Shown here: positions 31,417 to 52,189 of the stretch, piece by piece
How the letters are laid out: every line of letters starts with the position of its first letter
Numbering within the stretch: position 1 is the first letter of the stretch
Assembly (NCBI GenBank): GCA_037127795.1
Contig: JBAXXQ010000001.1
Coordinates: forward strand, 6,842-70,841
Direction of reading: 5' to 3'
DNA: 64,000 nucleotides
Origin: a bacterium
GTDB taxonomy: Bacteria; Patescibacteriota; Minisyncoccia; Phycocordibacterales; UBA9973
The notes under the pieces: generated by a model
Database searches by the model: none
What the model saw: only the letters and a program-made list of their open reading frames with translations
What the model was told of the DNA's origin: nothing
Position numbers and translations under genes: made by a program

Positions 31417-31495
31417 TATTATTTGACTCACACTCAAAAATGTTTTCCAATCAAAAAGACCTCAAAATATCTGGTATGATTATTTTTGCAAACGT

Positions 31496-32593
31496 ATGTT
31501 TACAAAACACACAAATAAATACTTTTCCAAAACAACCGGCACTATACTTTCTTTCGTACTTATATACAGTACGACCGGTATTCTTCTTGCAAAACAAATC
31601 ACCTCTTTCAGACACACAAACACTTCGCAAGTAAAAAACGAGGAGGTGTCTTTGCCACAAGTTGGCCACATCACAAATGAAAATACTATCGAGCCACTCG
31701 CCGCAACAAACGACAAACCAAGTATCAGCACATATACTGTTGTGACTGGTGACACACTCGCAAGTGTTGCAAAAAAATTCGACATCTCAGTCAACACTAT
31801 TTTGTGGGCAAACAATCTCTCTTCAAAATCTGCGCTCAAAGTAGGACAAAAACTTGTCATCCTCCCAGTGACCGGAATTACATATACAGTAAAAAAAGGT
31901 GACACACTCGGTAGTATTGCAAAAAAATTAAAAGCAGATCAATCAGAAATAATTTCTTTCAACGATCTCGGTGATGCAAAGTATATTAAGGTAGGAATGA
32001 AACTTGTGATCCCTGATGTAGAACCACAAATTCCAACAAAGACTCCAGAGAAAAAAGTAACAGAAAAAACACAACCTAAAAAATCAGAACCGAAAAAAAA
32101 TGAGACTCCGAGTGTTACTACTCAACAAGCAACAACTCCTTCACAAACTACTACTCCAACACAAGAGCTCGATGCACCCGCAGCACCAGCACCAAGCACT
32201 ACCCCACTCAAATCAACAACAGATTATTTTATTATGCCGATCCCTGGAAGCCACATCTCACAAGGACTTCACGGGTACAACTCTGTAGACTTTGGTGCAC
32301 CAACAGGAACACCTGTACTCGCAGCTGCAGATGGTATTGTGATCGTTGCAAAAAACGATAATGGCTTTGGTGGCGGCTATGGTAACTACATCGTAATCTC
32401 TCACCCCAATGGTACACAGACTCTCTACGCCCATCTTTCAAAAGTAGAAGTTGGTGTTGAAGATACTGTAAAGCAAGGTGCTGAAATTGGTAAGTGTGGG
32501 AGAACAGGGCGCGCTACTGGTCCTCACCTTCACTTCGAAGTTCGTGGTGGAGTGAACCCTTGGGTTGGTATGAAAGTCGGCACTAGTTTTTAA
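31496..32593 (+). CDS. LysM-domain M23-family metallopeptidase, a peptidoglycan hydrolase
   Basis: Two LysM repeats (YTVVTGDTLASVAKKF...; YTVKKGDTLGSIAKKL...), a Thr/Pro linker, and the M23 motifs HGYNSVDFGAP and GPHLHFEV. Confidence 0.85.
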   Translation: MFTKHTNKYFSKTTGTILSFVLIYSTTGILLAKQITSFRHTNTSQVKNEEVSLPQVGHITNENTIEPLAATNDKPSISTYTVVTGDTLASVAKKFDISVNTILWANNLSSKSALKVGQKLVILPVTGITYTVKKGDTLGSIAKKLKADQSEIISFNDLGDAKYIKVGMKLVIPDVEPQIPTKTPEKKVTEKTQPKKSEPKKNETPSVTTQQATTPSQTTTPTQELDAPAAPAPSTTPLKSTTDYFIMPIPGSHISQGLHGYNSVDFGAPTGTPVLAAADGIVIVAKNDNGFGGGYGNYIVISHPNGTQTLYAHLSKVEVGVEDTVKQGAEIGKCGRTGRATGPHLHFEVRGGVNPWVGMKVGTSF

Positions 32594-32644
32594 AAAAAAT
32601 ACGAAACAAAAAAAAAGAACCCGGAAGGGTTCTTGGTGTTTTAC

Positions 32645-33181
32645 TTAGTAGGTATCTACAATATACTCAACATCATCTAGTGTCTCAATATCGCCATACT
32701 CACTAGCATGCTCAGAAACTTTTTTGTTGATAGTTTCAGCAATCGTGATATCGTGATTGATACTCCTTACCATGTCGGCCACAGAAATCTCAAACACCTC
32801 TCTTTTGCCAGTGAATCTTTCAAAAAAGTCATCATGCTTGGTAAGCACTGTATCCCACCCTACTTGCACCATACCAGTACTTTTGATGATATATTCCATC
32901 CAAAAATAATGGTGCTTGGTACTAATAAGTGTGATGTACAAATACGCGAGATTCCCTTCTTCAGAATATTCTGTATTCCTATCTTCAAGCGCAACATCCA
33001 TAAGATCTGTATCTATAGCGAGATCGTTAGGAAAATCTTTTTCATCACGCCATTGTTTCAGATTACACAAACGATCTTTTACCACAGAAGACACTTTTAG
33101 ATACAGCGGAATTTTTTCATAATCCAAACCACAGAGTATACTAAGCAAAATTTCATTGTTTACAGTACTAGTACTATTCAT
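32645..33181 (-). CDS. Hypothetical protein
   Basis: A 178-aa ORF with no motif recognised. Confidence 0.4.
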   Translation of the reverse strand: MNSTSTVNNEILLSILCGLDYEKIPLYLKVSSVVKDRLCNLKQWRDEKDFPNDLAIDTDLMDVALEDRNTEYSEEGNLAYLYITLISTKHHYFWMEYIIKSTGMVQVGWDTVLTKHDDFFERFTGKREVFEISVADMVRSINHDITIAETINKKVSEHASEYGDIETLDDVEYIVDTY

Positions 33182-33216
33182 ATTTTATTTTTTTAAGAAT
33201 GAACAAATTTATTTTC

Positions 33217-33293
33217 ACTATCAACACACCATCAATTGATGAGCTGAACAATGAGGACACTTTTATACTTTTAAAGGCGTGTCCGTTTTCCTT
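33217..33293 (+). repeat. Copy 1 (A1) of a duplicated structured intergenic element
   Basis: The core cactatcaacacaccatcaattgatgagctgaacaatgaggac is followed by the hairpin ggacac...gtgtcc and a T-rich tail. A second copy lies at 33970-34048 with compensatory stem changes. Confidence 0.7.
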
Positions 33294-33442
33294 GAAGGTC
33301 TTAGCTTCTTGTATATGGTAGTAGTAATTATTTTATTAGGCACTACCTGATACCTAAATCACTTTTTCCATCCGAAGATGTACTTTCTGTTGCCAACCGG
33401 ATCTTCTATAGAAATAGAAGATGTGGTGATACCGGTCCGTTT

Positions 33443-33835
33443 CTACTCGTCTTCATCTTCACGCATAATATATGTAACATACTCATCAGCATGATAAAAA
33501 TAAATGAAGTGCTCATCCTCATACTTATAGAGCCACTCTTCTCCATCAATAAGAAAAAGTGGTTGTATGGCGTCGATTCTAAACCAATCAGTATTCTCAA
33601 CCTTCAAAATAATGGTTGCTCCAATACCTCTTCGTTGAATAGATCGATTAACCATCTCCGCAGTTATAGGAATTTGCCCAAGTCCTTTATATTCAAAACT
33701 TTCAAGAAAGTATAGATTTAAGCCGTACGTATCATCTACACTATCAGACTCTGAATATATAAAACATCGGCGACTAGATACTTCAAGATTTATACAGTCT
33801 TGCACTGCTTTACGGATTGTTTTAAATTGATCCAT
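33443..33835 (-). CDS. Acidic hypothetical protein bracketed by the A1 and A2 repeats
   Basis: A 130-aa ORF with an acidic C-terminus (EDEDE) and no motif. Confidence 0.4.
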   Translation of the reverse strand: MDQFKTIRKAVQDCINLEVSSRRCFIYSESDSVDDTYGLNLYFLESFEYKGLGQIPITAEMVNRSIQRRGIGATIILKVENTDWFRIDAIQPLFLIDGEEWLYKYEDEHFIYFYHADEYVTYIMREDEDE

Positions 33836-33969
33836 AAAAATTTCCCAGACAGCTGAATGCTGTTTTCCGTTCCTTGAAACGGGGTTTTATTAACTGGGTA
33901 ACGAGTTTCTTAAACTCTTTTTCGTTTTTAAAAGAACACTTATAGTGACTCACACTCAAGGATGTTTTT

Positions 33970-34048
33970 CACTATCAACACACCATCAATTGATGAGCTG
34001 AATAATGAGGACGATTTTACTACATAGGCTCGTCCATTTTCCTTTTTT
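33970..34048 (+). repeat. Copy 2 (A2) of the duplicated structured intergenic element
   Basis: The sequence cactatcaacacaccatcaattgatgagctgaataatgaggac is followed by the hairpin ggacga...tcgtcc and attttcctttttt. The stem differs from A1 by paired compensatory changes. Confidence 0.7.
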
Positions 34049-34214
34049 AATTTGAACTCTTATTTTTGTTATGAAAGATAAAAAATATATCAATCAGGTA
34101 ACACATAACCAAAACCCCTAATGTGAGAACTATAATAATCCCCACAGGATTACCTATTACTGCTTGAGTAATAAAAGTTAAGATAGCAAAAATAATGTTT
34201 CTTCTGTGTTTCAT
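34047..34214 (-). CDS. Small membrane protein, divergent partner of a TrmB gene
   Basis: About 55 aa from the ATG (MKHRRNIIFAILTFITQAVIG...) with two hydrophobic segments. The track ORF used an upstream TTG. Confidence 0.3.
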   Translation of the reverse strand: MKHRRNIIFAILTFITQAVIGNPVGIIIVLTLGVLVMCYLIDIFFIFHNKNKSSN

Positions 34215-34228
34215 TTTTTTAATTTTAG

Positions 34229-34261
34229 TGAACAAATGTTTTATCTGAGTACATCATAGCA
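34229..34261. repeat. Copy 1 (B1) of a conserved 33-nt intergenic element between a divergent small ORF and a TrmB gene
   Basis: The sequence tgaacaaatgttttatctgagtacatcatagca is identical 33 out of 33 to 35676-35708. Confidence 0.7.
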
Positions 34262-34372
34262 CCTTGTTTGATTTATGTCAAGTACATAGTCAATATATTT
34301 AGCACTATTTATCAACTTTAATATTATAAAATAAGGTTTATTTTATAAAAAAGAATATTTGTGTCAAAATTA

Positions 34373-34401
34373 TTGACATTTTATACCCTATTTTATATAC
34401 T
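34373..34401 (+). promoter_or_regulatory. Sigma-70-type promoter of the TrmB paralog. The predicted transcription start is at or next to the ATG, so the mRNA is leaderless.
   Basis: TTGACA, a 17-nt spacer, then TATACT ending 6 nt before the ATG at 34408. Confidence 0.55.
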
Positions 34402-34407
34402 TATTTT

Positions 34408-35160
34408 ATGGAAGACCAAATACAAGCACTTATTAAGATAGGACTTACAGACAAACAAGCTGTTGTCTACACCGCACTTCTTGAGCTTGGTGAAGCAAAA
34501 ATGACTCATATTGCCCGCCACGCAAAACTCAAACGTCCTACCGTATACCTTGTCATAGAAGAACTTATAGAGCTTGGACTAGTATCTCTCATAGAAAAAG
34601 GTAACAAGAAGATATATTCTTCAGTACACCCCAATCGTATTGCTGAGCTACTAGAATCACGCAAACAACAATACCAAGAGCTACTCCCCGACCTTCTCGC
34701 TCGATACGGATCTATCCGTGGTAAACCAAAAGTACAAATGCTCGAAGGTATACAAGGTATCAAGCAAGCATACCAAGAAGCCTACACACTACTTCTCGAA
34801 AATGAGAATGAGGGTTTGTGGTTTGGCAATATTTCTTTTCTCCTAAAGCACTTTCCCCAAGTAATTAAAGAATATAATATAGTATTAAACTCTTTAAAAA
34901 AATATAAGATTCGTGAAATAATTATAGGGGGTATAGAGAGTAAGCAGTGGGTAGAAAAAATGCAATCAAATCAAAAACCTAATCATCAAATAAAATATCT
35001 TGATGATAGTGAGCAATGCGGGATTACCGACCAATTCATAATAGGTAATAAAATTATACTTTTTTCTATGAATAAGGAATTGTTCACCCTTATAATAGAG
35101 AGCGAAGAGATTGTAAAAACTCAACGCTTTTTGTTTGAACAAATCTGGAAAAACAATTAA
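34408..35160 (+). CDS. TrmB-family transcriptional regulator, paralog 1
   Basis: 250 aa with an N-terminal winged HTH (LTDKQAVVYTALLELGEAKMTHIARHAKLKRPTVYLVIEELIELGLV) plus a C-terminal domain of TrmB length. Confidence 0.65.
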   Translation: MEDQIQALIKIGLTDKQAVVYTALLELGEAKMTHIARHAKLKRPTVYLVIEELIELGLVSLIEKGNKKIYSSVHPNRIAELLESRKQQYQELLPDLLARYGSIRGKPKVQMLEGIQGIKQAYQEAYTLLLENENEGLWFGNISFLLKHFPQVIKEYNIVLNSLKKYKIREIIIGGIESKQWVEKMQSNQKPNHQIKYLDDSEQCGITDQFIIGNKIILFSMNKELFTLIIESEEIVKTQRFLFEQIWKNN

Positions 35161-35292
35161 TATTTATATTTTAAATGAACATTTTCTGTTTCGCTCTTTT
35201 GAGCTCATCAGTCGAAATAATACATCTCGAGACAGAACGGAGCTTTTTCAAACTCCGTAGTTTGTGAACGATTTTATCTTTAGGATCATTCT

Positions 35293-35652
35293 TTACCCTC
35301 TTGAGTTTCTTAAAAAGGATAATATGTTTTCACCCTCAATGCTTGTACATTTTGAATTTATATATCTTTCACGTATATAACCTTCAGTATGTTTTGTGAT
35401 AGAAAAACCCGTAAGCTTTGAAATTGCTTTGAGACGACCCAAGTCGCACATACACCCACAATCACCTAAATTTTTTGTTTTCCTTGTAACAAATTCTTTA
35501 CATACCAATTGAAAATCTTTTTTATTTTTAACCATTAGGTATAAGGCTTTCTTAGATGGAGAACCTGTATCTCCCTTATCCTGAAAACCGATTTCGAGTA
35601 ATGAAAGATTGTCTGTTGCAACAAAAAACAAATTTAATAAATTTTTTTTCAT
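35293..35652 (-). CDS. Hypothetical Cys-containing protein, divergent partner of a TrmB gene
   Basis: A 119-aa ORF with a DCGCMCD cluster and no family recognised. Confidence 0.4.
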   Translation of the reverse strand: MKKNLLNLFFVATDNLSLLEIGFQDKGDTGSPSKKALYLMVKNKKDFQLVCKEFVTRKTKNLGDCGCMCDLGRLKAISKLTGFSITKHTEGYIRERYINSKCTSIEGENILSFLRNSRG

Positions 35653-35675
35653 ATGTGTAAGTTTTTTAATTTAAA

Positions 35676-35708
35676 TGAACAAATGTTTTATCTGAGTACA
35701 TCATAGCA
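35676..35708. repeat. Copy 2 (B2) of the conserved 33-nt intergenic element
   Basis: Identical to 34229-34261 and in the same position relative to the divergent gene pair. Confidence 0.7.
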
Positions 35709-35792
35709 GTTTTGTAAAGGTTTGTCAATATAACATCAAATAAATATTTGTAAATATATAAAAATATATTATAAAATATAGATAAAAAAGTG

Positions 35793-35821
35793 TTGACCAT
35801 ACTCCAACAACATGATATATT
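35793..35821 (+). promoter_or_regulatory. Sigma-70-type promoter of TrmB paralog 2. The mRNA is leaderless.
   Basis: TTGACC, a 17-nt spacer, then TATATT. The ATG at 35830 lies 8 nt downstream of the -10 element. Confidence 0.5.
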
Positions 35822-35829
35822 TATTATAT

Positions 35830-36597
35830 ATGATTGAACAATCGCTGCAAAAATTAGGGTTTTCTGAGAAAGAAATAGCTATATATCTATGTGTTCTAGA
35901 GCACGGCAAACTATCTGCGGCTATAGTAGCTCGTATCACAAAAATCAATAGAACAACTGTCTATAGTGTGACAAAAGAGCTTATTTCTAAAGGGTTTATT
36001 ATAGAAGATATAGGAGGGGTAAATCGCTACTATACCGCACTACAACCAAACGACATACCTGGATTATATAAAAAAGAAGAGCAATTACTCCAAGAAAAGA
36101 AAAAGATAGTAGATCAGGTAATACAAGAACTTGCCTCTATTCCAAAATCAAAAAGTTATTCAGTTCCCAAGATTCGCTTTATCGATGAATACCACTTAAA
36201 CGATTTCCTTCATACACAACTCCCTGTCTGGATAGAAAGTGCAAAATCTACAGACAAAAACTGGTGGGGCTTTCAAGATGTTTCTTTTATAGATACCTAT
36301 CCAGACTGGTACAAATACCATTGGGAGATTTTTCCCAAAGAATACGGCACAAGACTATTTACCAACCAAAAACCTTCTGAGGAAAAATTTGCAAAACATG
36401 TCTCTGACACAGAGCGTCGACAGATTAAGTATTGGTCAAAATCAAAAGACTTTACTGCAACACACGCCGTTCTTGGCGACTATGTATTGTTTTCTATCAC
36501 AAACCAAAGACCTCATTATGCCGTAGAAATACACGACGCTGTCATGGCGGAAAATATCCGAGAGATATTTAGGGGGTTATGGGAGGAAGTTAATTAA
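35830..36597 (+). CDS. TrmB-family transcriptional regulator, paralog 2
   Basis: Starts MIEQSLQKLGFSEKEIAIYLCVLEHGKLSAAIVARITKINRTTVYSVTKELISKGFI and is closely similar to 45861-46619 in the shared KINRTTVYSV, YSVPKIRFI, WWGFQD and EIHDAV motifs. The start was reset from the track ORF start at 35812. Confidence 0.7.
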   Translation: MIEQSLQKLGFSEKEIAIYLCVLEHGKLSAAIVARITKINRTTVYSVTKELISKGFIIEDIGGVNRYYTALQPNDIPGLYKKEEQLLQEKKKIVDQVIQELASIPKSKSYSVPKIRFIDEYHLNDFLHTQLPVWIESAKSTDKNWWGFQDVSFIDTYPDWYKYHWEIFPKEYGTRLFTNQKPSEEKFAKHVSDTERRQIKYWSKSKDFTATHAVLGDYVLFSITNQRPHYAVEIHDAVMAENIREIFRGLWEEVN

Positions 36598-41275: not shown

Positions 41276-41304
41276 GGGGCTTTTTATTGTATACTGGTAG
41301 TGTA

Positions 41305-42207
41305 ATGGATATACAAAAACTAAAACGCCAATTTCTCGAGTATATAGAAATTGAAAAAGGGCGAAGTCTAAAAACAGTTGAAAACTATGATCGATATATC
41401 AGTCGGTTTATTGCTGAAGCACATATCAAACAAGCCCGCGATATAACAGAATCTCATATCCGAGAATTTCGCCTCAAGCTCAATCGTTCTCAAGGGATAA
41501 AAGTTCGTGGGCAAGCATCTGCGACAATGAAAAAAAATACACAAAACTACTACATGATCGCGCTTCGTTCATTACTCAAGTACGCGCGCAAGTGCAATAT
41601 AGACACACTCACGCCCGATGCAATTGAGCTCGCAAAAACAGGAGGCAGACACCTCGACCTTATTTCTTTTGATGAGCTCTCTCGCCTACTCAAAGCTCCA
41701 GATACCAAAGAGCTCAAAGGGCTTCGCGATAAAGCAATACTAGAATTATTTTTTTCAACAGGACTTCGTCTTTCTGAGCTTTGTTCACTCAATCGGGATT
41801 TGGATTTATCAAAAGATGAATTTTCTATTCGCGGAAAAGGAGAAAAAGTGCGCGTCGTATTCCTTTCTGATGATGCAAAAGCAAGTATCAAAGCATATAT
41901 CGCTGCACGCAAAGATATGGACGATGCGCTCTTTGTCGATACTATAAAAAGCAAAACAGGTAGTCGTCTCACCCCCCGCTCTATAGAACGACTTGTCCGA
42001 CACTATGCAATACAAGCAGGTATTTCAAAAAAAGTAACACCGCACGTACTACGTCACTCATTTGCGACAGACCTTTTATCAAATGGGGCTGATATTCGCA
42101 GTGTCCAAATGATGCTCGGACATGCAAATATTGCTACCACTCAGGTATATACCCATATCACAGACAAACAACTCCGCGATGTACACAAAAAATTCCACTC
42201 TCGCTAG
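41305..42207 (+). CDS. xerC: Tyrosine site-specific recombinase, XerC/XerD-type
   Basis: The C-terminus HVLRHSFATDLLSNGADIRSVQMMLGHANIATTQVYTH carries the R..H..R..Y catalytic residues and there is an N-terminal SAM-like core-binding domain. The ATG is at 41305, as the track ORF used TTG at 41287, and a TATACT -10 element sits 9 nt upstream. Confidence 0.85.
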   Translation: MDIQKLKRQFLEYIEIEKGRSLKTVENYDRYISRFIAEAHIKQARDITESHIREFRLKLNRSQGIKVRGQASATMKKNTQNYYMIALRSLLKYARKCNIDTLTPDAIELAKTGGRHLDLISFDELSRLLKAPDTKELKGLRDKAILELFFSTGLRLSELCSLNRDLDLSKDEFSIRGKGEKVRVVFLSDDAKASIKAYIAARKDMDDALFVDTIKSKTGSRLTPRSIERLVRHYAIQAGISKKVTPHVLRHSFATDLLSNGADIRSVQMMLGHANIATTQVYTHITDKQLRDVHKKFHSR

Positions 42208-50256: not shown

Positions 50257-50327
50257 TGCGGCTACAGGGAATCGAACCCTGGTCTCGTCCTTGGCAAGGA
50301 CGCATTCTACCACTAAACCATAACCGC
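50257..50327 (-). tRNA. tRNA-Gly (anticodon GCC)
   Basis: Cloverleaf found by hand. The acceptor stem is GCGGTTA/TAGCCGC, the anticodon stem is CGTCC/GGACG, the loop is TTGCCAA and the T-loop is TTCGATT. No CCA is encoded. Confidence 0.8.
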
Positions 50328-50388
50328 AACAGAAATTAGTATAGATTATTTTTACTTTTTTGTAAATAAATGCTACATTTAGCGTACT

Positions 50389-50460
50389 GCACCTATGGTG
50401 AAATGGATATCACAGCGGTCTTCGGAACCGTTATTCTGGGTTCGAGTCCTGGTAGGTGCA
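50389..50460 (+). tRNA. tRNA-Arg (anticodon TCG)
   Basis: The acceptor stem is GCACCTA/TAGGTGC, the D-stem is GTGA/TCAC, the anticodon stem is GCGGT/ACCGT, the loop is CTTCGGA and the T-loop is TTCGAGT. The T-stem has two G-U pairs. Confidence 0.75.
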
Positions 50461-50470
50461 CAGCGTTTAG

Positions 50471-50498
50471 AAAAACATGCACTGCTGCATGTTTTTTA
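50471..50498 (+). terminator. Hairpin with a T-run downstream of tRNA-Arg
   Basis: The sequence aaaaacatgcactgctgcatgtttttt has the stem ACATGCA/TGCATGT. Confidence 0.55.
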
Positions 50499-50500
50499 GC

Positions 50501-50650
50501 TGTGCAAGGCGGAGACATGTCCGCAGGGCAGTCGAGCCGGGGTCGCGAACACTTTGCAGATTTCGAGCATTAGCGAAGAAATATGCTTAGTGATTTGTGA
50601 CCACAACAACCATCAGCTCCAGCAGGAGCGAGAGTCGAGTCCTATTTTCA
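50501..50650. other. Compact GC-rich segment with local hairpins, a candidate structured RNA of unknown identity
   Basis: Markedly higher G+C than the surrounding AT-rich DNA, with local stems such as gcgga/tccgc and agcat/atgct. There is no convincing ORF, and only a spurious track ORF overlaps the tRNA. It lies between the tRNA-Arg terminator and the yraN promoter region. Confidence 0.3.
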
Positions 50651-50817
50651 CATTATTAAAGACTTTATAACGCGCGTCTTTTACACCTGTCTTTTCTTGT
50701 CTTTTACGATATACTAATTATGTCCTAGAGTTTTCCCCTGTTTTTTACTCAAAAAAGTGCAAAACTGTGGATAACCCTGTGGGTATGTGGGATAAACGAC
50801 GACTTTTAGGGTCTTTT

Positions 50818-51177
50818 ATGAAGCAATTCACCTCAAAAACACAAAAGATTGGCGAATACGGAGAAGAACAAGCGGTGGTGTTTCTCATGAAACAAGGCTT
50901 TAGTATTGTAGATCGCAATGTATCAAACAAGTACGGAGAAATAGATATTATTGGGAAAAAGGGGAAAACATACTACTTTTTTGAAGTAAAAGCAGGGAAG
51001 TATGGTGGTTTTATAAATCCAGCAGAGAATCTTACCCCAGTGAAACTACGAAAATTCCTTATTTCTGTAGAGCATTATTGTTTCATACACAAAATCAAAG
51101 ATTATAGGGTGCAGGGTATTATCGTACTACTACAAGGTGAAAAAGTGTTTTCTGTAGAGTGTATTGATATATATTAA
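50818..51177 (+). CDS. yraN: YraN-family (UPF0102) predicted endonuclease
   Basis: The sequence GEYGEEQAVVFLMKQGFSIVDRNVSNKYGEIDIIGKKGKTYYFFEVKA matches the YraN consensus. The start was set to the internal MKQFTSK. Confidence 0.75.
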   Translation: MKQFTSKTQKIGEYGEEQAVVFLMKQGFSIVDRNVSNKYGEIDIIGKKGKTYYFFEVKAGKYGGFINPAENLTPVKLRKFLISVEHYCFIHKIKDYRVQGIIVLLQGEKVFSVECIDIY

Positions 51178-51220
51178 CAATTCTGGTACTATGGGCTGTA
51201 CAGCTATTTGAAAATTGAGT

Positions 51221-51293
51221 CGGGATGTAGTGTAACGGCTAACATTCCTGTTTTGGGAACAGGCGACTCCGGGTTCGAATCCCGGCATCCCGA
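51221..51293 (+). tRNA. tRNA-Pro (anticodon TGG)
   Basis: The acceptor stem is CGGGATG/CATCCCG, the anticodon stem is CCTGT/ACAGG, the loop is TTTGGGA and the T-arm is CCGGG TTCGAAT CCCGG. Confidence 0.85.
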
Positions 51294-51340
51294 CTCAGTT
51301 TTTAAATGTAGACTGTATATAGTAAAATAGATTATCCGTC

Positions 51341-51411
51341 GCGGGATTAGTTTATCGGTAAAATAACAGTTTTCCAAACTGTGGTGAAGGGTTCGACTCC
51401 CTTATCCCGCA
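51341..51411 (+). tRNA. tRNA-Gly (anticodon TCC)
   Basis: The acceptor stem is GCGGGAT/ATCCCGC, the anticodon stem is ACAGT/ACTGT, the loop is TTTCCAA and the T-arm is AAGGG TTCGACT CCCTT. On folding, positions 34-36 read TCC, so this is Gly rather than Trp-CCA. Confidence 0.7.
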
Positions 51412-51475
51412 CAATACAAAAAATACTCAGGTTTTCCTGGGTATTTTTTGTTATTTATTATGATAAACTATATTT

Positions 51476-52105
51476 ATGAAAAAACTTATTTTTATAGACC
51501 TAGACGGGACACTTACAGATGAATCTACTTGGCTTACACTTAATACCGCACTGGGAATTACAAAAGAAGAAGATGAATTGCTTTTTATTCAATATTTACA
51601 AAACGATATTGCATATGACGATTGGATAAAAAAACTTGTAGAAATACATACATCTCGGGGAAGTATTACAAAAACAGAACTAAAACTAATGGTGGAAAAT
51701 ATTCCTCTTAAAGAGGGGGTATTAGAAATGGTTCTAGATTTACACAGTAAAGGGTTTCATACAGTACTTCTTTCAGGATCTGTAGATTTTATCGTGGAAC
51801 AAATAGCTCAAAAAATTGGGATACGTGCATGGATGGCTTGCTCAAAACTTATTTTTAATGAAAATGAAACACTTATAGATATAATATCTGGTGGTGATGA
51901 AATATACAAAAAAGAAACTCTTGCTGAAAAATACATACAAGATAACGATTTTATGAACGCAGAGATATATGCACTAGGGGATGGAGCAAACGATATTGAG
52001 TTATTTAAAAAATATAAAGGAATACTTATTGGTAATAATAAACATCTAGAACCAATAACCTGGAAAAGTATACAAACACTACAGGAAATAAAAGATTTGA
52101 TATAA
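51476..52105 (+). CDS. HAD-IB family hydrolase (SerB-like)
   Basis: Contains LIFIDLDGTLTD (HAD motif I), LSGSVDF (motif II) and GDGANDIELF (motif IV). Confidence 0.8.
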   Translation: MKKLIFIDLDGTLTDESTWLTLNTALGITKEEDELLFIQYLQNDIAYDDWIKKLVEIHTSRGSITKTELKLMVENIPLKEGVLEMVLDLHSKGFHTVLLSGSVDFIVEQIAQKIGIRAWMACSKLIFNENETLIDIISGGDEIYKKETLAEKYIQDNDFMNAEIYALGDGANDIELFKKYKGILIGNNKHLEPITWKSIQTLQEIKDLI

Positions 52106-52118
52106 TATACCCACCACT

Positions 52119-52189
52119 GCGAGTATGGTTTAGTGGTAGAATGCGACCTTCCCAAGGTTGAGACCGGGGTTCGATTCCCCGTACTCGCA
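52119..52189 (+). tRNA. tRNA-Gly (anticodon CCC)
   Basis: The acceptor stem is GCGAGTA/TACTCGC, the anticodon stem is CGACC/GGTTG, the loop is TTCCCAA and the T-arm is CGGGG TTCGATT CCCCG. It is a close paralog of the GCC tRNA. Confidence 0.8.

What the first reader, a model, noticed from the sequence alone, without database searches (positions are those of the whole stretch)
33217..34048. Duplicated intergenic element of about 77 nt with compensatory base changes in its hairpin, bracketing an acidic ORF
The copies at 33217-33293 and 33970-34048 share a 43-nt core (cactatcaacacaccatcaattgatgagctgaaYaatgaggac). A hairpin follows whose stem differs between copies by paired changes, ggacac/gtgtcc versus ggacga/tcgtcc, and then a T-rich tail. 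Covariation that preserves pairing argues for selection on RNA or DNA structure, as in a terminator-containing small RNA, a regulatory leader or a MITE-like element. The two copies are direct repeats flanking ORF 33443-33835. Related short motifs recur nearby, including gactcacactcaa at 31425-31437 and 33947-33959, and AATGTTTT cores.
Basis: seen in the sequence. Interest (0 to 1): 0.6.

Follow-up and report, generated by a model that had tools for sequence, protein, structure and literature searches.

The report
Structured RNA spacer between operon genes
The duplicated 77-nt element is a two-hairpin RNA motif read on the opposite strand, between the genes of a small operon; in related bacteria the same position holds a hammerhead ribozyme, so it probably marks where the long mRNA is cut or stabilised.

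Summary
The repeat is real: the 43-nt core occurs twice with one mismatch, against none in 100 shuffles. On the minus strand the "core" is a 40-nt hairpin (H2) that needs 3-4 G·U pairs. Both copies lie between same-strand ORFs of a likely operon: promoter 34281, ORF55, H1H2, ORF130, H1H2, ORF178, terminator 32634. The element is a family. A covariance model found members next to orthologous TrmB-like genes in five related metagenomic genomes. Across 7 sequences 94.6% of cells pair and 13 of 22 pairs show double-sided changes. H1 is a separate module that also precedes a hammerhead in L053. In relatives, the position after the first ORF divergent from TrmB holds either hairpin+H2 (4 loci) or hairpin+type III hammerhead (5 loci). 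The window has a hammerhead at 35183-35238. My best reading is an undescribed intercistronic mRNA "punctuation" module that does the same job as the hammerhead modules. The cutting agent is unknown. No Rfam family matches. It is not a MITE, not a plus-strand sRNA, and not an integron attC site.

The parts
33255..33293 (-). H1, copy 1: 5' flank AAGGAAAAC, then a 6-bp stem GGACAC/GUGUCC (33284-33279 pairs with 33260-33255) with loop GCCUUUAAAAGUAUAAAA
   Evidence: Model R3 scores it 46.6 bits. In alignment A6 all 6 pairs form in all 4 sequences and 3 pairs covary.
33215..33254 (-). H2, copy 1: UCAUUGU-U-CAGC-U-CAUCA-[AUUGA]-UGGUG-U-GUUG-AUAGUGA. It has 16 pairs including 4 G·U, a 1-nt 5' bulge and a 1x1 mismatch. 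It starts 0 nt after H1.
   Evidence: Fold. R1 scores H1+H2 83.3 bits. Pair counts. RNAalifold predicts the same structure.
34009..34044 (-). H1, copy 2: flank AAGGAAAAU, then stem GGACGA/UCGUCC. It begins 3-4 nt after the UAA stop of ORF55/62 (34049-34047).
   Evidence: R3 scores it 53.7 bits. Sequence.
33969..34008 (-). H2, copy 2. The one difference from copy 1 (G to A) turns a G·U pair into A-U.
   Evidence: (80.4 bits).
33182..33214 (-). A/U-rich leader AAAAUAAAUUUGUUCAUUCUUAAAAAAAUAAAAU between H2 copy 1 and the ATG of ORF178. It contains the UUGUUCAYU...AAAA motif.
   Evidence: The same motif follows the predicted start of the D1 promoters in the window, and follows hammerheads in L055 and L058.
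34253..34281 (-). Sigma-70-type promoter TTGACA-17-TATGAT with an extended TG. Likely promoter of the operon that carries both copies.
   Evidence: 11/12 match. The same promoter is conserved in L050, L052/53 and L061.
34047..34214 (-). ORF55, a small hydrophobic protein and first cistron (62 aa if read from the TTG at 34235)
   Evidence: codon score 0.21. No family hit.
33443..33835 (-). ORF130, the acidic ORF bracketed by the two copies; second cistron
   Evidence: Codon score 0.54, similar to the 22 long training ORFs (first 20 printed: 0.26-0.85). ORFan: only itself among 5.8 billion proteins.
32645..33181 (-). ORF178, third cistron
   Evidence: Codon score 0.45. ORFan, NCBI WCQ32_00195.
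32615..32634 (.). Bidirectional intrinsic terminator that closes the operon
35183..35238 (-). Type III hammerhead ribozyme after ORF119: GUC cleavage site, CUGAUGA and GAAA core. This is the neighbouring module of the same kind.
   Evidence: Rfam RF00008, 41.9 bits, E = 3.6e-7, full length. This is below the gathering score of 48.5.
35239..35300 (-). Upstream part of the hammerhead module: a degenerate H1-like hairpin (35300-35266) overlapping the ORF119 stop, a spacer, then hairpin GGAGU/GCUCC (35256-35239) abutting the hammerhead
   Evidence: R3 gives 17.4 bits, E = 0.04, which is weak. Fold of the upstream 45 nt.

Best explanation
The element is a cis-acting structured RNA on the minus strand, transcribed as part of a polycistronic mRNA: promoter 34281, ORF55, [H1+H2], ORF130, [H1+H2], ORF178, terminator 32634. 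It has two modules. H1 is a stop-codon-proximal hairpin with a conserved loop and a freely covarying stem. H2 is a conserved 40-nt bulged hairpin rich in G·U pairs. I infer that it works as intercistronic "punctuation". The transcript would be cut, or its ends defined, at or near the H1|H2 junction. The upstream cistron would then end in a protective 3' hairpin. The downstream cistron would begin with a 5' hairpin followed by an A/U-rich leader. Hairpin+type III hammerhead modules in the same position in related genomes would give this same outcome. Shown here: the repeat, the strand, the structure and its covariation, the family, the modularity, and the positional interchange with hammerheads. 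Inferred: co-transcription, which rests on promoter and terminator scans only, and the processing or stabilising function. Unknown: the cutting agent, which could be a host RNase such as RNase III, P or Y, or the RNA itself.
For: Strand and structure: minus-strand folds have z = -3.1 and -4.2, against -0.2 and -1.9 for the plus strand. There are 17 G·U pairs against 1 A·C. Family: model R1 was built from 4 sequences and found L062 on its own (45.4 bits, E = 1e-9), L063 (20.4 bits, E = 1e-3) and L050 (15.2 bits, the top hit), all between or after minus-strand ORFs beside an orthologous TrmB-like gene. Covariation over 7 sequences: 94.6% of cells paired, 13 of 22 pairs changed on both sides, 0 of 500 shuffles reached this, and slid controls gave at most 4. 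RNAalifold predicts the same fold. Operon context: a strong promoter lies only at 34281..34253, none was predicted between there and 32640, and a terminator lies at 32634. The ORFs have gene-like codon usage. Interchange with hammerheads: RF00008 hits occur in the window, L055 (two), L053, L058, L059/60 and L061. Each is directly preceded by a hairpin. After the first ORF divergent from TrmB there is a hammerhead in L053, L055, L058, L059 and L061, and H2 in the window, L062, L063 and L050. H1 precedes H2 in the window and L063, and precedes a hammerhead in L053. The same UUGUUCAYU leader follows promoters, hammerheads and H2. Literature: clustered hammerheads flank variable genes and cut polycistronic RNA (PMC3088659). 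Unrelated ribozyme classes share such contexts (PMC6765202).
Against: There are no transcript data, so co-transcription and cleavage are not shown. H2 is structurally simple, and nothing marks a cleavage site. The hairpin before H2 is followed by the U-rich stretch UCAUUAUUC, so it could simply be a leaky terminator. The family is small: 7 instances in 6 loci, two of them weak (L063, L050). The alignments used for pair counts were fitted to the model. Exact-word scans of the genome and metagenome collections found no further copies, although they tested only this genome's own sequence variant.
Confidence: 0.55

Rival explanations
1. It is a leaky intrinsic terminator or insulator with no cleavage. 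H1, or the GC hairpin in relatives, together with the U-rich 5' arm of H2 would partly terminate transcription. This would set decreasing expression along the operon. H2 would only stabilise read-through RNA, or has some unrelated role.
For: A hairpin is always followed by UCAUUAUUC-like sequence. An A-tract lies upstream of the hairpin in L053 and in copy 2, as in bidirectional terminators. In L056 and at the window hammerhead the module faces the 3' end of a convergent TrmB gene, where a terminator is expected.
Against: H1 has a 6-bp stem and a 15-18-nt loop with conserved sequence, which would make a poor terminator. The terminator scan flags neither copy on either strand. This reading does not explain the conserved, covarying H2 that starts exactly at the hairpin base. 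It also does not explain why hammerheads, which need read-through to be made at all, take its place.
Confidence: 0.2
2. A small plus-strand RNA, consisting of the 43-nt core, a terminator hairpin and a U-tail, acts as an sRNA. It could be an antisense antitoxin to the 3' UTR of the small hydrophobic ORF55, as in a type I toxin-antitoxin system.
For: On the + strand the hairpin is followed by T-runs: ATTTTCCTTTTTT in copy 2 and seven T's in L053. The ORF before the element is often a small membrane protein (window ORF55 and L050 ORF88; the ORFs in this position in L062 and L053 also look hydrophobic by eye).
Against: G·U pairs outnumber A·C 17 to 1, and the fold-energy asymmetry favours the minus strand. 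The plus-strand upstream flanks of the two copies are unrelated and have no good promoter. Copy 1 follows an acidic soluble ORF at a distance of about 150 nt. Hammerheads on the mRNA-sense strand occupy the same position in relatives. The plus-strand peptide reading frame is not conserved, because L053 has a 1-nt indel. Its codon score is 0.01.
Confidence: 0.05
3. It is a DNA-level site. It could be a recombination site for gene cassettes, folded as single-stranded DNA like an integron attC site. Or it could be an operator for the neighbouring TrmB-like regulator.
For: The layout resembles an integron: a conserved gene is transcribed divergently from an array of variable, promoterless ORFan genes, and each of these is followed by an imperfect bulged hairpin. 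Genes shuffle relative to the elements. L049's first ORF is homologous to L062's second ORF, and L053 ORF104 is homologous to L063 ORF181. ORF130 and ORF178 have no homologues anywhere.
Against: No integrase is adjacent. The nearest is an ORF about 7 kb away (41287..42207) that carries a GLRLSEL motif typical of XerC/D recombinases; I recognised it by eye and ran no family search on it. Tyrosine recombinase genes lie at a similar distance in L049 and L050. There are no R''/R' boxes: GTTGATA does not fit GTTRRRY. H2 is 40 nt, shorter than attC sites. The half-sites are 26 nt apart, which is wrong for a winged-helix dimer. Mismatches are all transitions that give G·U pairs in RNA. Hammerheads, which act only as RNA, are interchangeable with it.
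Confidence: 0.07
4. It is a neutral remnant of a recent local duplication and has no function.
For: There are only two copies in 64 kb, 754 bp apart, in an island of lower G+C with other local repeats such as D1.
Against: The flanks and the intervening ORFs are unrelated. H1 diverged by paired changes while H2 stayed 39/40 identical. Homologous modules with compensatory changes exist in genomes whose TrmB proteins are only 74-81% identical.
Confidence: 0.03

Closest known systems
Clustered hammerhead ribozymes flanking genes in bacterial or prophage polycistronic transcripts (Perreault et al. 2011, PMC3088659; Rfam RF00008)
   Same: It occupies the same position, after or between small variable hypothetical genes on the mRNA-sense strand. 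It has the same upstream partner (a hairpin abutting the element, and the H1 module). It is followed by the same downstream leader. A true type III hammerhead lies 1.2 kb away in the window.
   Different: H2 has no CUGANGA/GAAA core and no three-way junction. Rfam gives no hit even at E <= 10. Sequence similarity to hammerheads is not reproducible across members. Self-cleavage is not shown.
Ribozyme classes found through shared genomic context with hammerheads: twister, and by the same approach twister-sister, pistol and hatchet. The twister case and the general approach are described in PMC6765202. That the other three were found this way is from my own knowledge of Weinberg et al. 2015.
   Same: The line of evidence is the same: an unrelated conserved RNA motif recurs where hammerheads recur.
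   Different: Those motifs have pseudoknots or multi-stem cores with invariant unpaired nucleotides, and their cleavage has been demonstrated. H2 is a single bulged hairpin. None of their Rfam models matches.
RNase III intercistronic processing hairpins of phage T7 and SP82 early mRNAs (from established knowledge; not tested here)
   Same: These are repeated, conserved, imperfect hairpins between cistrons of one long transcript. Cleavage leaves a stabilising 3' hairpin on the upstream mRNA.
   Different: H2 has only 16-17 bp. Its sequence conservation is higher than RNase III usually requires. No nuclease has been identified.
REP/BIME, Correia (NEMIS), ERIC and BOX intergenic repeats (from established knowledge)
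   Same: These are short hairpin-forming repeats that are co-transcribed in intergenic mRNA and affect mRNA stability or processing.
   Different: Those are dispersed in tens to hundreds of copies per genome, and some have terminal inverted repeats and target duplications. This element occurs twice in 64 kb, only in the ORFan array beside a TrmB-like gene, and has none of those features.
Integron attC sites
   Same: There is an array of promoterless ORFan genes, each followed by an imperfect hairpin with a bulged base, next to a divergently transcribed conserved gene.
   Different: There is no IntI and no R/L box consensus. The fold depends on G·U pairs. The element is interchangeable with ribozymes, which act only as RNA.

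Membership tests
Hammerhead ribozyme (RF00008 and clan CL00010) | Conserved core C3-U4-G5-A6-N7-G8-A9 and G12-A13-A14 at a three-helix junction, with a UH cleavage site | tested here: not met
   No hammerhead hit on either strand of 33100-34100 at E <= 10. The true hammerhead at 35183-35238 scored 41.9 bits in the same search. By eye, UUGAUGG lacks C3 and A9 and there is no stem II.
Hammerhead ribozyme (decayed relic) | Reproducible sequence similarity of H2 members to the lineage's hammerheads | tested here: not met
   Only window H2 against the window hammerhead reaches 22/48 (p about 0.016). All other tested H2-hammerhead combinations have p > 0.2.
Any Rfam 15 family, including twister, twister-sister, pistol, hatchet, HDV-like and tRNA | A covariance-model match | tested here: not met
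   on the window. on loci holding other members returned only tRNAs, hammerheads and weak hits below the gathering score that overlap tRNA genes; none lies at an H2 site. ARAGORN found nothing.
Rho-independent terminator | GC-rich stem, 3-8-nt loop, then a run of U | tested here: not met
   Neither copy was flagged on either strand. The H1 loop is 15-18 nt. The tail is UCAUUGUU on the minus strand and GTTTTCC or ATTTTCC on the plus strand. Partial terminator activity cannot be excluded.
MITE or other small mobile repeat | Terminal inverted repeats, target-site duplication, many dispersed copies | tested here: not met
   There are two copies in 64 kb. The flanks show no duplication. There were no copies in the phage, plasmid or viral collections.
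Integron attC site | R'' RYYYAAC and R' GTTRRRY boxes, length 57-141 nt, adjacent intI | tested here: not met
   By inspection of the sequence, TATCAAC/GTTGATA do not fit the boxes and H2 is 40 nt. None of the ORFs in and beside the array that were scanned against Pfam (32645-36597) is a recombinase. The nearest candidate recombinase is the ORF at 41287..42207, recognised only by a GLRLSEL motif.
Independent plus-strand sRNA gene | Own conserved promoter, and structure or conservation on the transcribed strand | tested here: not met
   The upstream flanks of the two copies are unrelated, with only one 9/12 site near copy 1. Structure favours the minus strand. Transcription itself cannot be tested with these tools.
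Small protein-coding ORF on the plus strand (M..FTINTPSIDELNNED) | Conserved reading frame and coding-like codon usage | tested here: not met
   The frame is not kept in L053, which has a 1-nt indel. The peptide is not conserved in L056 or L062. The codon score is 0.01.
Structured cis-acting RNA (generic) | Base pairs kept through compensatory changes in independent sequences, on one strand | tested here: met
   Alignment A5: 94.6% of cells paired, 13 of 22 pairs changed on both sides, 0 of 500 shuffles as high, slid controls at most 4. Alignment A6 for H1: 100% paired with 3 covarying pairs. RNAalifold agrees. Caveat: there are only 7 sequences, and the alignment was fitted to the model.
Self-cleaving ribozyme (new class) | Site-specific self-scission in vitro giving 2',3'-cyclic phosphate and 5'-OH ends | not testable with these tools
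   Only contextual evidence exists: interchange with hammerheads.

The most novel reading that the evidence does not exclude
H2, with its abutting hairpin, is a new and very small class of self-cleaving RNA, or the recognition site of a dedicated unknown endoribonuclease. Some Paceibacteria-like (CPR) bacteria would use it in place of type III hammerheads to cut ORFan operons into single-gene mRNAs. The TrmB-adjacent arrays would then be ribozyme-punctuated cassette arrays with rapid gene turnover.
Probability: 0.1. Interest if true: 0.9.

Novelty: new variant of a known kind. Interest (0 to 1): 0.6.

Why it matters
The biological role of bacterial hammerheads is still open (PMC6765202). This lineage offers a natural swap experiment. 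The same position in orthologous loci holds either a hammerhead or an unrelated, undescribed two-hairpin motif, with shared upstream (H1) and downstream (leader) parts. If H2 is cut, by itself or by an RNase, that would support the view that these ribozymes exist to punctuate polycistronic mRNAs. It would also give a new processing signal, or possibly a new ribozyme class, in the little-studied Patescibacteria. If H2 is not cut, the need for cleavage at these sites would be called into question.

Tried and rejected
(1) Exact-word scans with this genome's H2 centre. The GTDB representative genomes gave one chance hit, in Paenochrobactrum. JGI metagenomes gave 46 hits to the 18-mer, none with any flank similarity. 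IMG/VR gave none.
(2) Degenerate family patterns in viral contigs gave 0 hits for H1+H2 and 0 for H1. A loose H2 pattern gave 16 hits, but none passes model R2.
(3) blastn of the whole operon against the phage and plasmid collections found nothing.
(4) Pfam, PADLOC and PHROGs gave no convincing match for ORF55, ORF130, ORF178 or ORF119. Homologue searches for ORF178 and ORF130 found only the proteins themselves. The two ORFs are not paralogues.
(5) H2 as a decayed hammerhead is rejected.
(6) A promoter inside H2 (TTGATG or TTGATA as -35) is rejected. The -10 is not conserved between copies or across members, and the scan flags nothing.
(7) A plus-strand micro-ORF is rejected.
(8) A tRNA-like call is rejected.
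(9) The identical ENA contig L001 added no information.

Full report
OBSERVATION. The 43-nt core occurs exactly twice in the window, at 33216-33258 and 33970-34012 on the + strand, with one C/T difference. None of 100 dinucleotide-preserving shuffles gave a match, even with 3 mismatches allowed (D2). The adjacent hairpin differs by two paired changes, GGACAC/GTGTCC versus GGACGA/TCGTCC. The 13-mer at 31425 and 33947 is present.

STRAND AND STRUCTURE. Both flanking ORFs are on the minus strand: ORF 32645..33181 (178 aa) and ORF 33443..33835 (130 aa). So is a small hydrophobic ORF at 34047..34214/34235. Folded as RNA, the minus strand of each copy gives two directly adjacent hairpins at -24.4 and -23.3 kcal/mol (z = -3.1 and -4.2 against dinucleotide shuffles). 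The plus strand gives -14.3 and -12.8 kcal/mol (z = -0.2 and -1.9). It has 16 pairs, four of them G·U, so it forms only in the minus-strand transcript.

OPERON CONTEXT. The promoter and terminator scan finds a near-consensus minus-strand promoter at 34281..34253 (TTGACA-17-TATGAT with an extended TG). It finds no minus-strand promoter between there and 32640. A bidirectional terminator lies at 32634-32615. ORF130 and ORF178 have in-frame codon scores of 0.54 and 0.45. The long training genes score 0.26-0.85, and the off-frames are negative. The likely unit is promoter, ORF55, [H1H2], ORF130, [H1H2], ORF178, terminator, so the element is intercistronic mRNA. This step rests on sequence scans only.

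A paralogous unit lies next to it. It has the same promoter and leader (repeat D1, 34189-34281 versus 35636-35728), then ORF119 (35293..35652). Then comes a full-length type III hammerhead at 35238..35183 (RF00008, 41.9 bits, E = 3.6e-7, below the gathering score of 48.5).

RELATED GENOMES. ORF178 and ORF130 have no homologues among 5.8 billion proteins other than themselves. They are NCBI MAG proteins WCQ32_00195 and WCQ32_00200, on a contig of 580,599 bp. The neighbouring TrmB-like regulator (34408..35160, Pfam PF01978) has many homologues at 50-83% identity. Some are labelled Candidatus Pacebacteria or Paceibacterota. I fetched their contigs.

Inspection and a motif scan found homologues of the element in L053 (identical in L052) and L056 (identical in L057). 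Model R1 was built from those plus the two window copies (A3). It then found L062 905..844 (45.4 bits, E = 1.4e-9) and L063 1430..1360 (20.4 bits, E = 1e-3). Its best remaining hit was L050 9558..9482 (15.2 bits, E about 0.2), which I had already noted by eye as a structural analogue. All are on the sense strand of neighbouring small ORFs, directly after a hairpin.

Across the 7 sequences (A5), 94.6% of cells form standard pairs and 13 of 22 pairs show changes on both sides. No shuffle out of 500 reaches the observed values, and slid-partner controls give 35-48% pairing with at most 4 such pairs. RNAalifold predicts the same two hairpins independently. In the 5-sequence alignment G·U pairs number 17 against 1 A·C, which fixes the strand. 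Conserved features are the weak 7-bp outer stem (UCAYYNU/AUAGUGA), a 1-nt 5' bulge, and an A-U plus G·U step in CAG/UUG (7 of 7 and 6 of 7). The inner stem and loop vary freely. The retrained model R2 finds no further members in the window or in 86 kb of related loci.

H1 IS A SEPARATE MODULE. The motif AAGGAAAAY-GGAnnn-GCCUA..GUAAAA-nnnUCC recurs in four independent places. Its stem covaries fully: CAC/GUG, CGA/UCG, AUA/UAU and GCA/UGC. All 6 pairs form in all four sequences (A6; R3 scores 46-54 bits). In the two window copies it is fused directly to H2. In L063 it is followed by a spacer, a GC hairpin and H2. In L053 it is followed by a spacer, a GC hairpin and a hammerhead. A weak H1-like hit (17.4 bits, E = 0.04) lies after the ORF119 stop, upstream of the window's hammerhead. 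In every case except window copy 1, H1 begins at or within a few nucleotides of the preceding ORF's stop codon.

INTERCHANGE WITH HAMMERHEADS. Rfam finds type III hammerheads in L055 (two; 51.0 and 42.3 bits), L052/53, L058, L059/60 and L061. Each is directly preceded by a hairpin, just as H2 is. After the first ORF transcribed divergently from the TrmB-like gene there is a hairpin+hammerhead in L053, L055, L058, L059 and L061. In the window, L062, L063 and L050 there is a hairpin/H1+H2. The divergent promoter TTGACA-N17-TATGAT is conserved in several of these loci. The same A/U-rich leader, UUGUUCAYU...AAAA...AUG, follows the predicted transcription start of that promoter in the window, follows hammerheads in L055 and L058, and follows H2 at window copy 1. 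Genes move relative to the elements. L049's first ORF is homologous to L062's second ORF, and L053 ORF104 is homologous to L063 ORF181.

MECHANISM. Cleavage of a type III hammerhead leaves the upstream RNA ending in "hairpin + 7-8 nt". It leaves the downstream RNA starting with a folded 5' domain followed by the leader. Published work shows that clustered hammerheads flank variable genes and cut about 2-kb polycistronic RNAs (PMC3088659). It also shows that structurally unrelated ribozymes occupy the same contexts, which suggests the exact motif is unimportant (PMC6765202). I therefore infer that H1/hairpin+H2 is a punctuation module of the same kind. H1 or the GC hairpin would be the 3' cap of the upstream cistron. 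H2 would be the recognition or cleavage element and the 5' cap of the downstream cistron. The 0-nt junction would be the likely processing point. What does the cutting is unknown. H2 has 7+4/5+5 bp, which is compatible in size with RNase III or RNase P mini-helix substrates. That comparison draws on general knowledge and was not tested. Self-cleavage is possible but unsupported.

REJECTED OR WEAKER READINGS.
- Plus-strand sRNA with terminator: the strand asymmetry, the lack of a shared promoter and the non-conserved frame argue against it.
- MITE: there are no inverted termini or target duplications and only two copies.
- attC-like recombination site: there is no integrase and no box consensus, the fold depends on G·U pairs, and the element swaps with ribozymes.
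- Decayed hammerhead: the similarity is not reproducible.
- Known Rfam family: none matches.
- Leaky terminator without processing: this remains the main rival. The hairpin is followed by a U-rich arm, and in L056 and at the window's hammerhead the module faces a convergent gene.

LIMITS. There are no expression data. The family has 7 instances in 6 loci, two of them weak. The pair counts use model-fitted alignments.

VERDICT. This is a real, structured, strand-specific RNA motif family that is absent from Rfam. It sits in intercistronic or 3' positions of ORFan operons in a Paceibacteria-like lineage, and it is positionally interchangeable with type III hammerhead modules. I rate it a new variant of a known kind (intercistronic mRNA processing or stability elements). 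There is a minority chance of about 0.1 that it is a new self-cleaving or nuclease-specific motif.

Noticed in passing
window 35183-35238 (-): A complete type III hammerhead ribozyme (GUC site, CUGAUGA, GAAA, 6-bp stem I, 4-bp stem II) lies after ORF119 and faces the 3' end of the convergent TrmB-like gene. RF00008 gives 41.9 bits, E = 3.6e-7, below the gathering score of 48.5.
   Followed up: yes
L055 3868-3922(-) and 514-568(-); L052 9069-9123(-) = L053 2194-2248(-); L058 265-319(-); L059 3158-3213(-) = L060 1553-1608(-); L061 1-50(-): Type III hammerheads recur beside orthologous TrmB-like genes in related CPR-like metagenomic contigs. Each abuts an upstream hairpin, and each lies between or after small hypothetical ORFs. 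A literature search found no report of hammerheads in CPR bacteria.
   Followed up: partly
window 34189-34281 and 35636-35728: A repeat of about 93 nt (D1, 76% identical) carries a near-consensus minus-strand promoter (TTGACA-17-TATGAT) and a shared 5' leader (GAUAAAACAUUUGUUCAYU). It sits in front of ORF55 and ORF119, each divergent from a TrmB-like paralogue.
   Followed up: partly
window 34373-34408 and 35793-35830: Both TrmB-like paralogues look leaderless. The -10 hexamers end 6 and 8 nt before the ATGs at 34408 and 35830. TrmB-B therefore probably starts at 35830, not at the 35812 given in the ORF list.
   Followed up: no
window 33200, 34229, 35136, 35676 (all minus strand); L055 511; L058 about 264; L050 9481: The motif (A)UUUGUUCAYU followed by an A-run lies 12-30 nt before the start codons of ORFs that lack a Shine-Dalgarno sequence (the 35136 copy lies inside the TrmB-A coding region). 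It follows a promoter, a hammerhead or H2. It may be a translation-initiation leader specific to this gene set.
   Followed up: partly
window 31424-31449 and 33946-33971: A 26-nt repeat is 23/26 identical (TGACTCACACTCAARRATGTTTTYCA). By my estimate it is only borderline above chance. One copy lies just past H2 copy 2. The other lies between a terminator and the LysM/M23 peptidase gene.
   Followed up: no
window 33836-33968 (-): An unusually long 134-nt spacer with several small hairpins lies between H2 copy 2 and the ORF130 start. It contains a leader-like GUGUUCUUUUAAAAA with no ORF behind it, and may be the remnant of a lost cistron.
   Followed up: no
L053 about 2470-2312 (-): An unannotated 52-aa hydrophobic ORF (MVALNVIAVVIALILG...) ends in the UAA that overlaps H1. 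Small membrane ORFs often precede the H1/H2 or hammerhead modules (window ORF55 and L050 ORF88; L062 ORF63 also looks hydrophobic by eye).
   Followed up: no
window 33600-36200: The ORFan/TrmB island has lower G+C (0.29-0.33) than the window average (0.367).
   Followed up: no
window 50257-52189: A cluster of five tRNA genes (Rfam RF00005, 59-69 bits).
   Followed up: no
window 31730-31929: A 50-nt internal direct repeat (80% identical) lies inside the LysM/M23 peptidase gene. The translated repeat looks like tandem LysM domains; I ran no domain search on this ORF. The gene probably starts at the TTG at 31654, after a GAGGAGG Shine-Dalgarno sequence, rather than at 31496.
   Followed up: no
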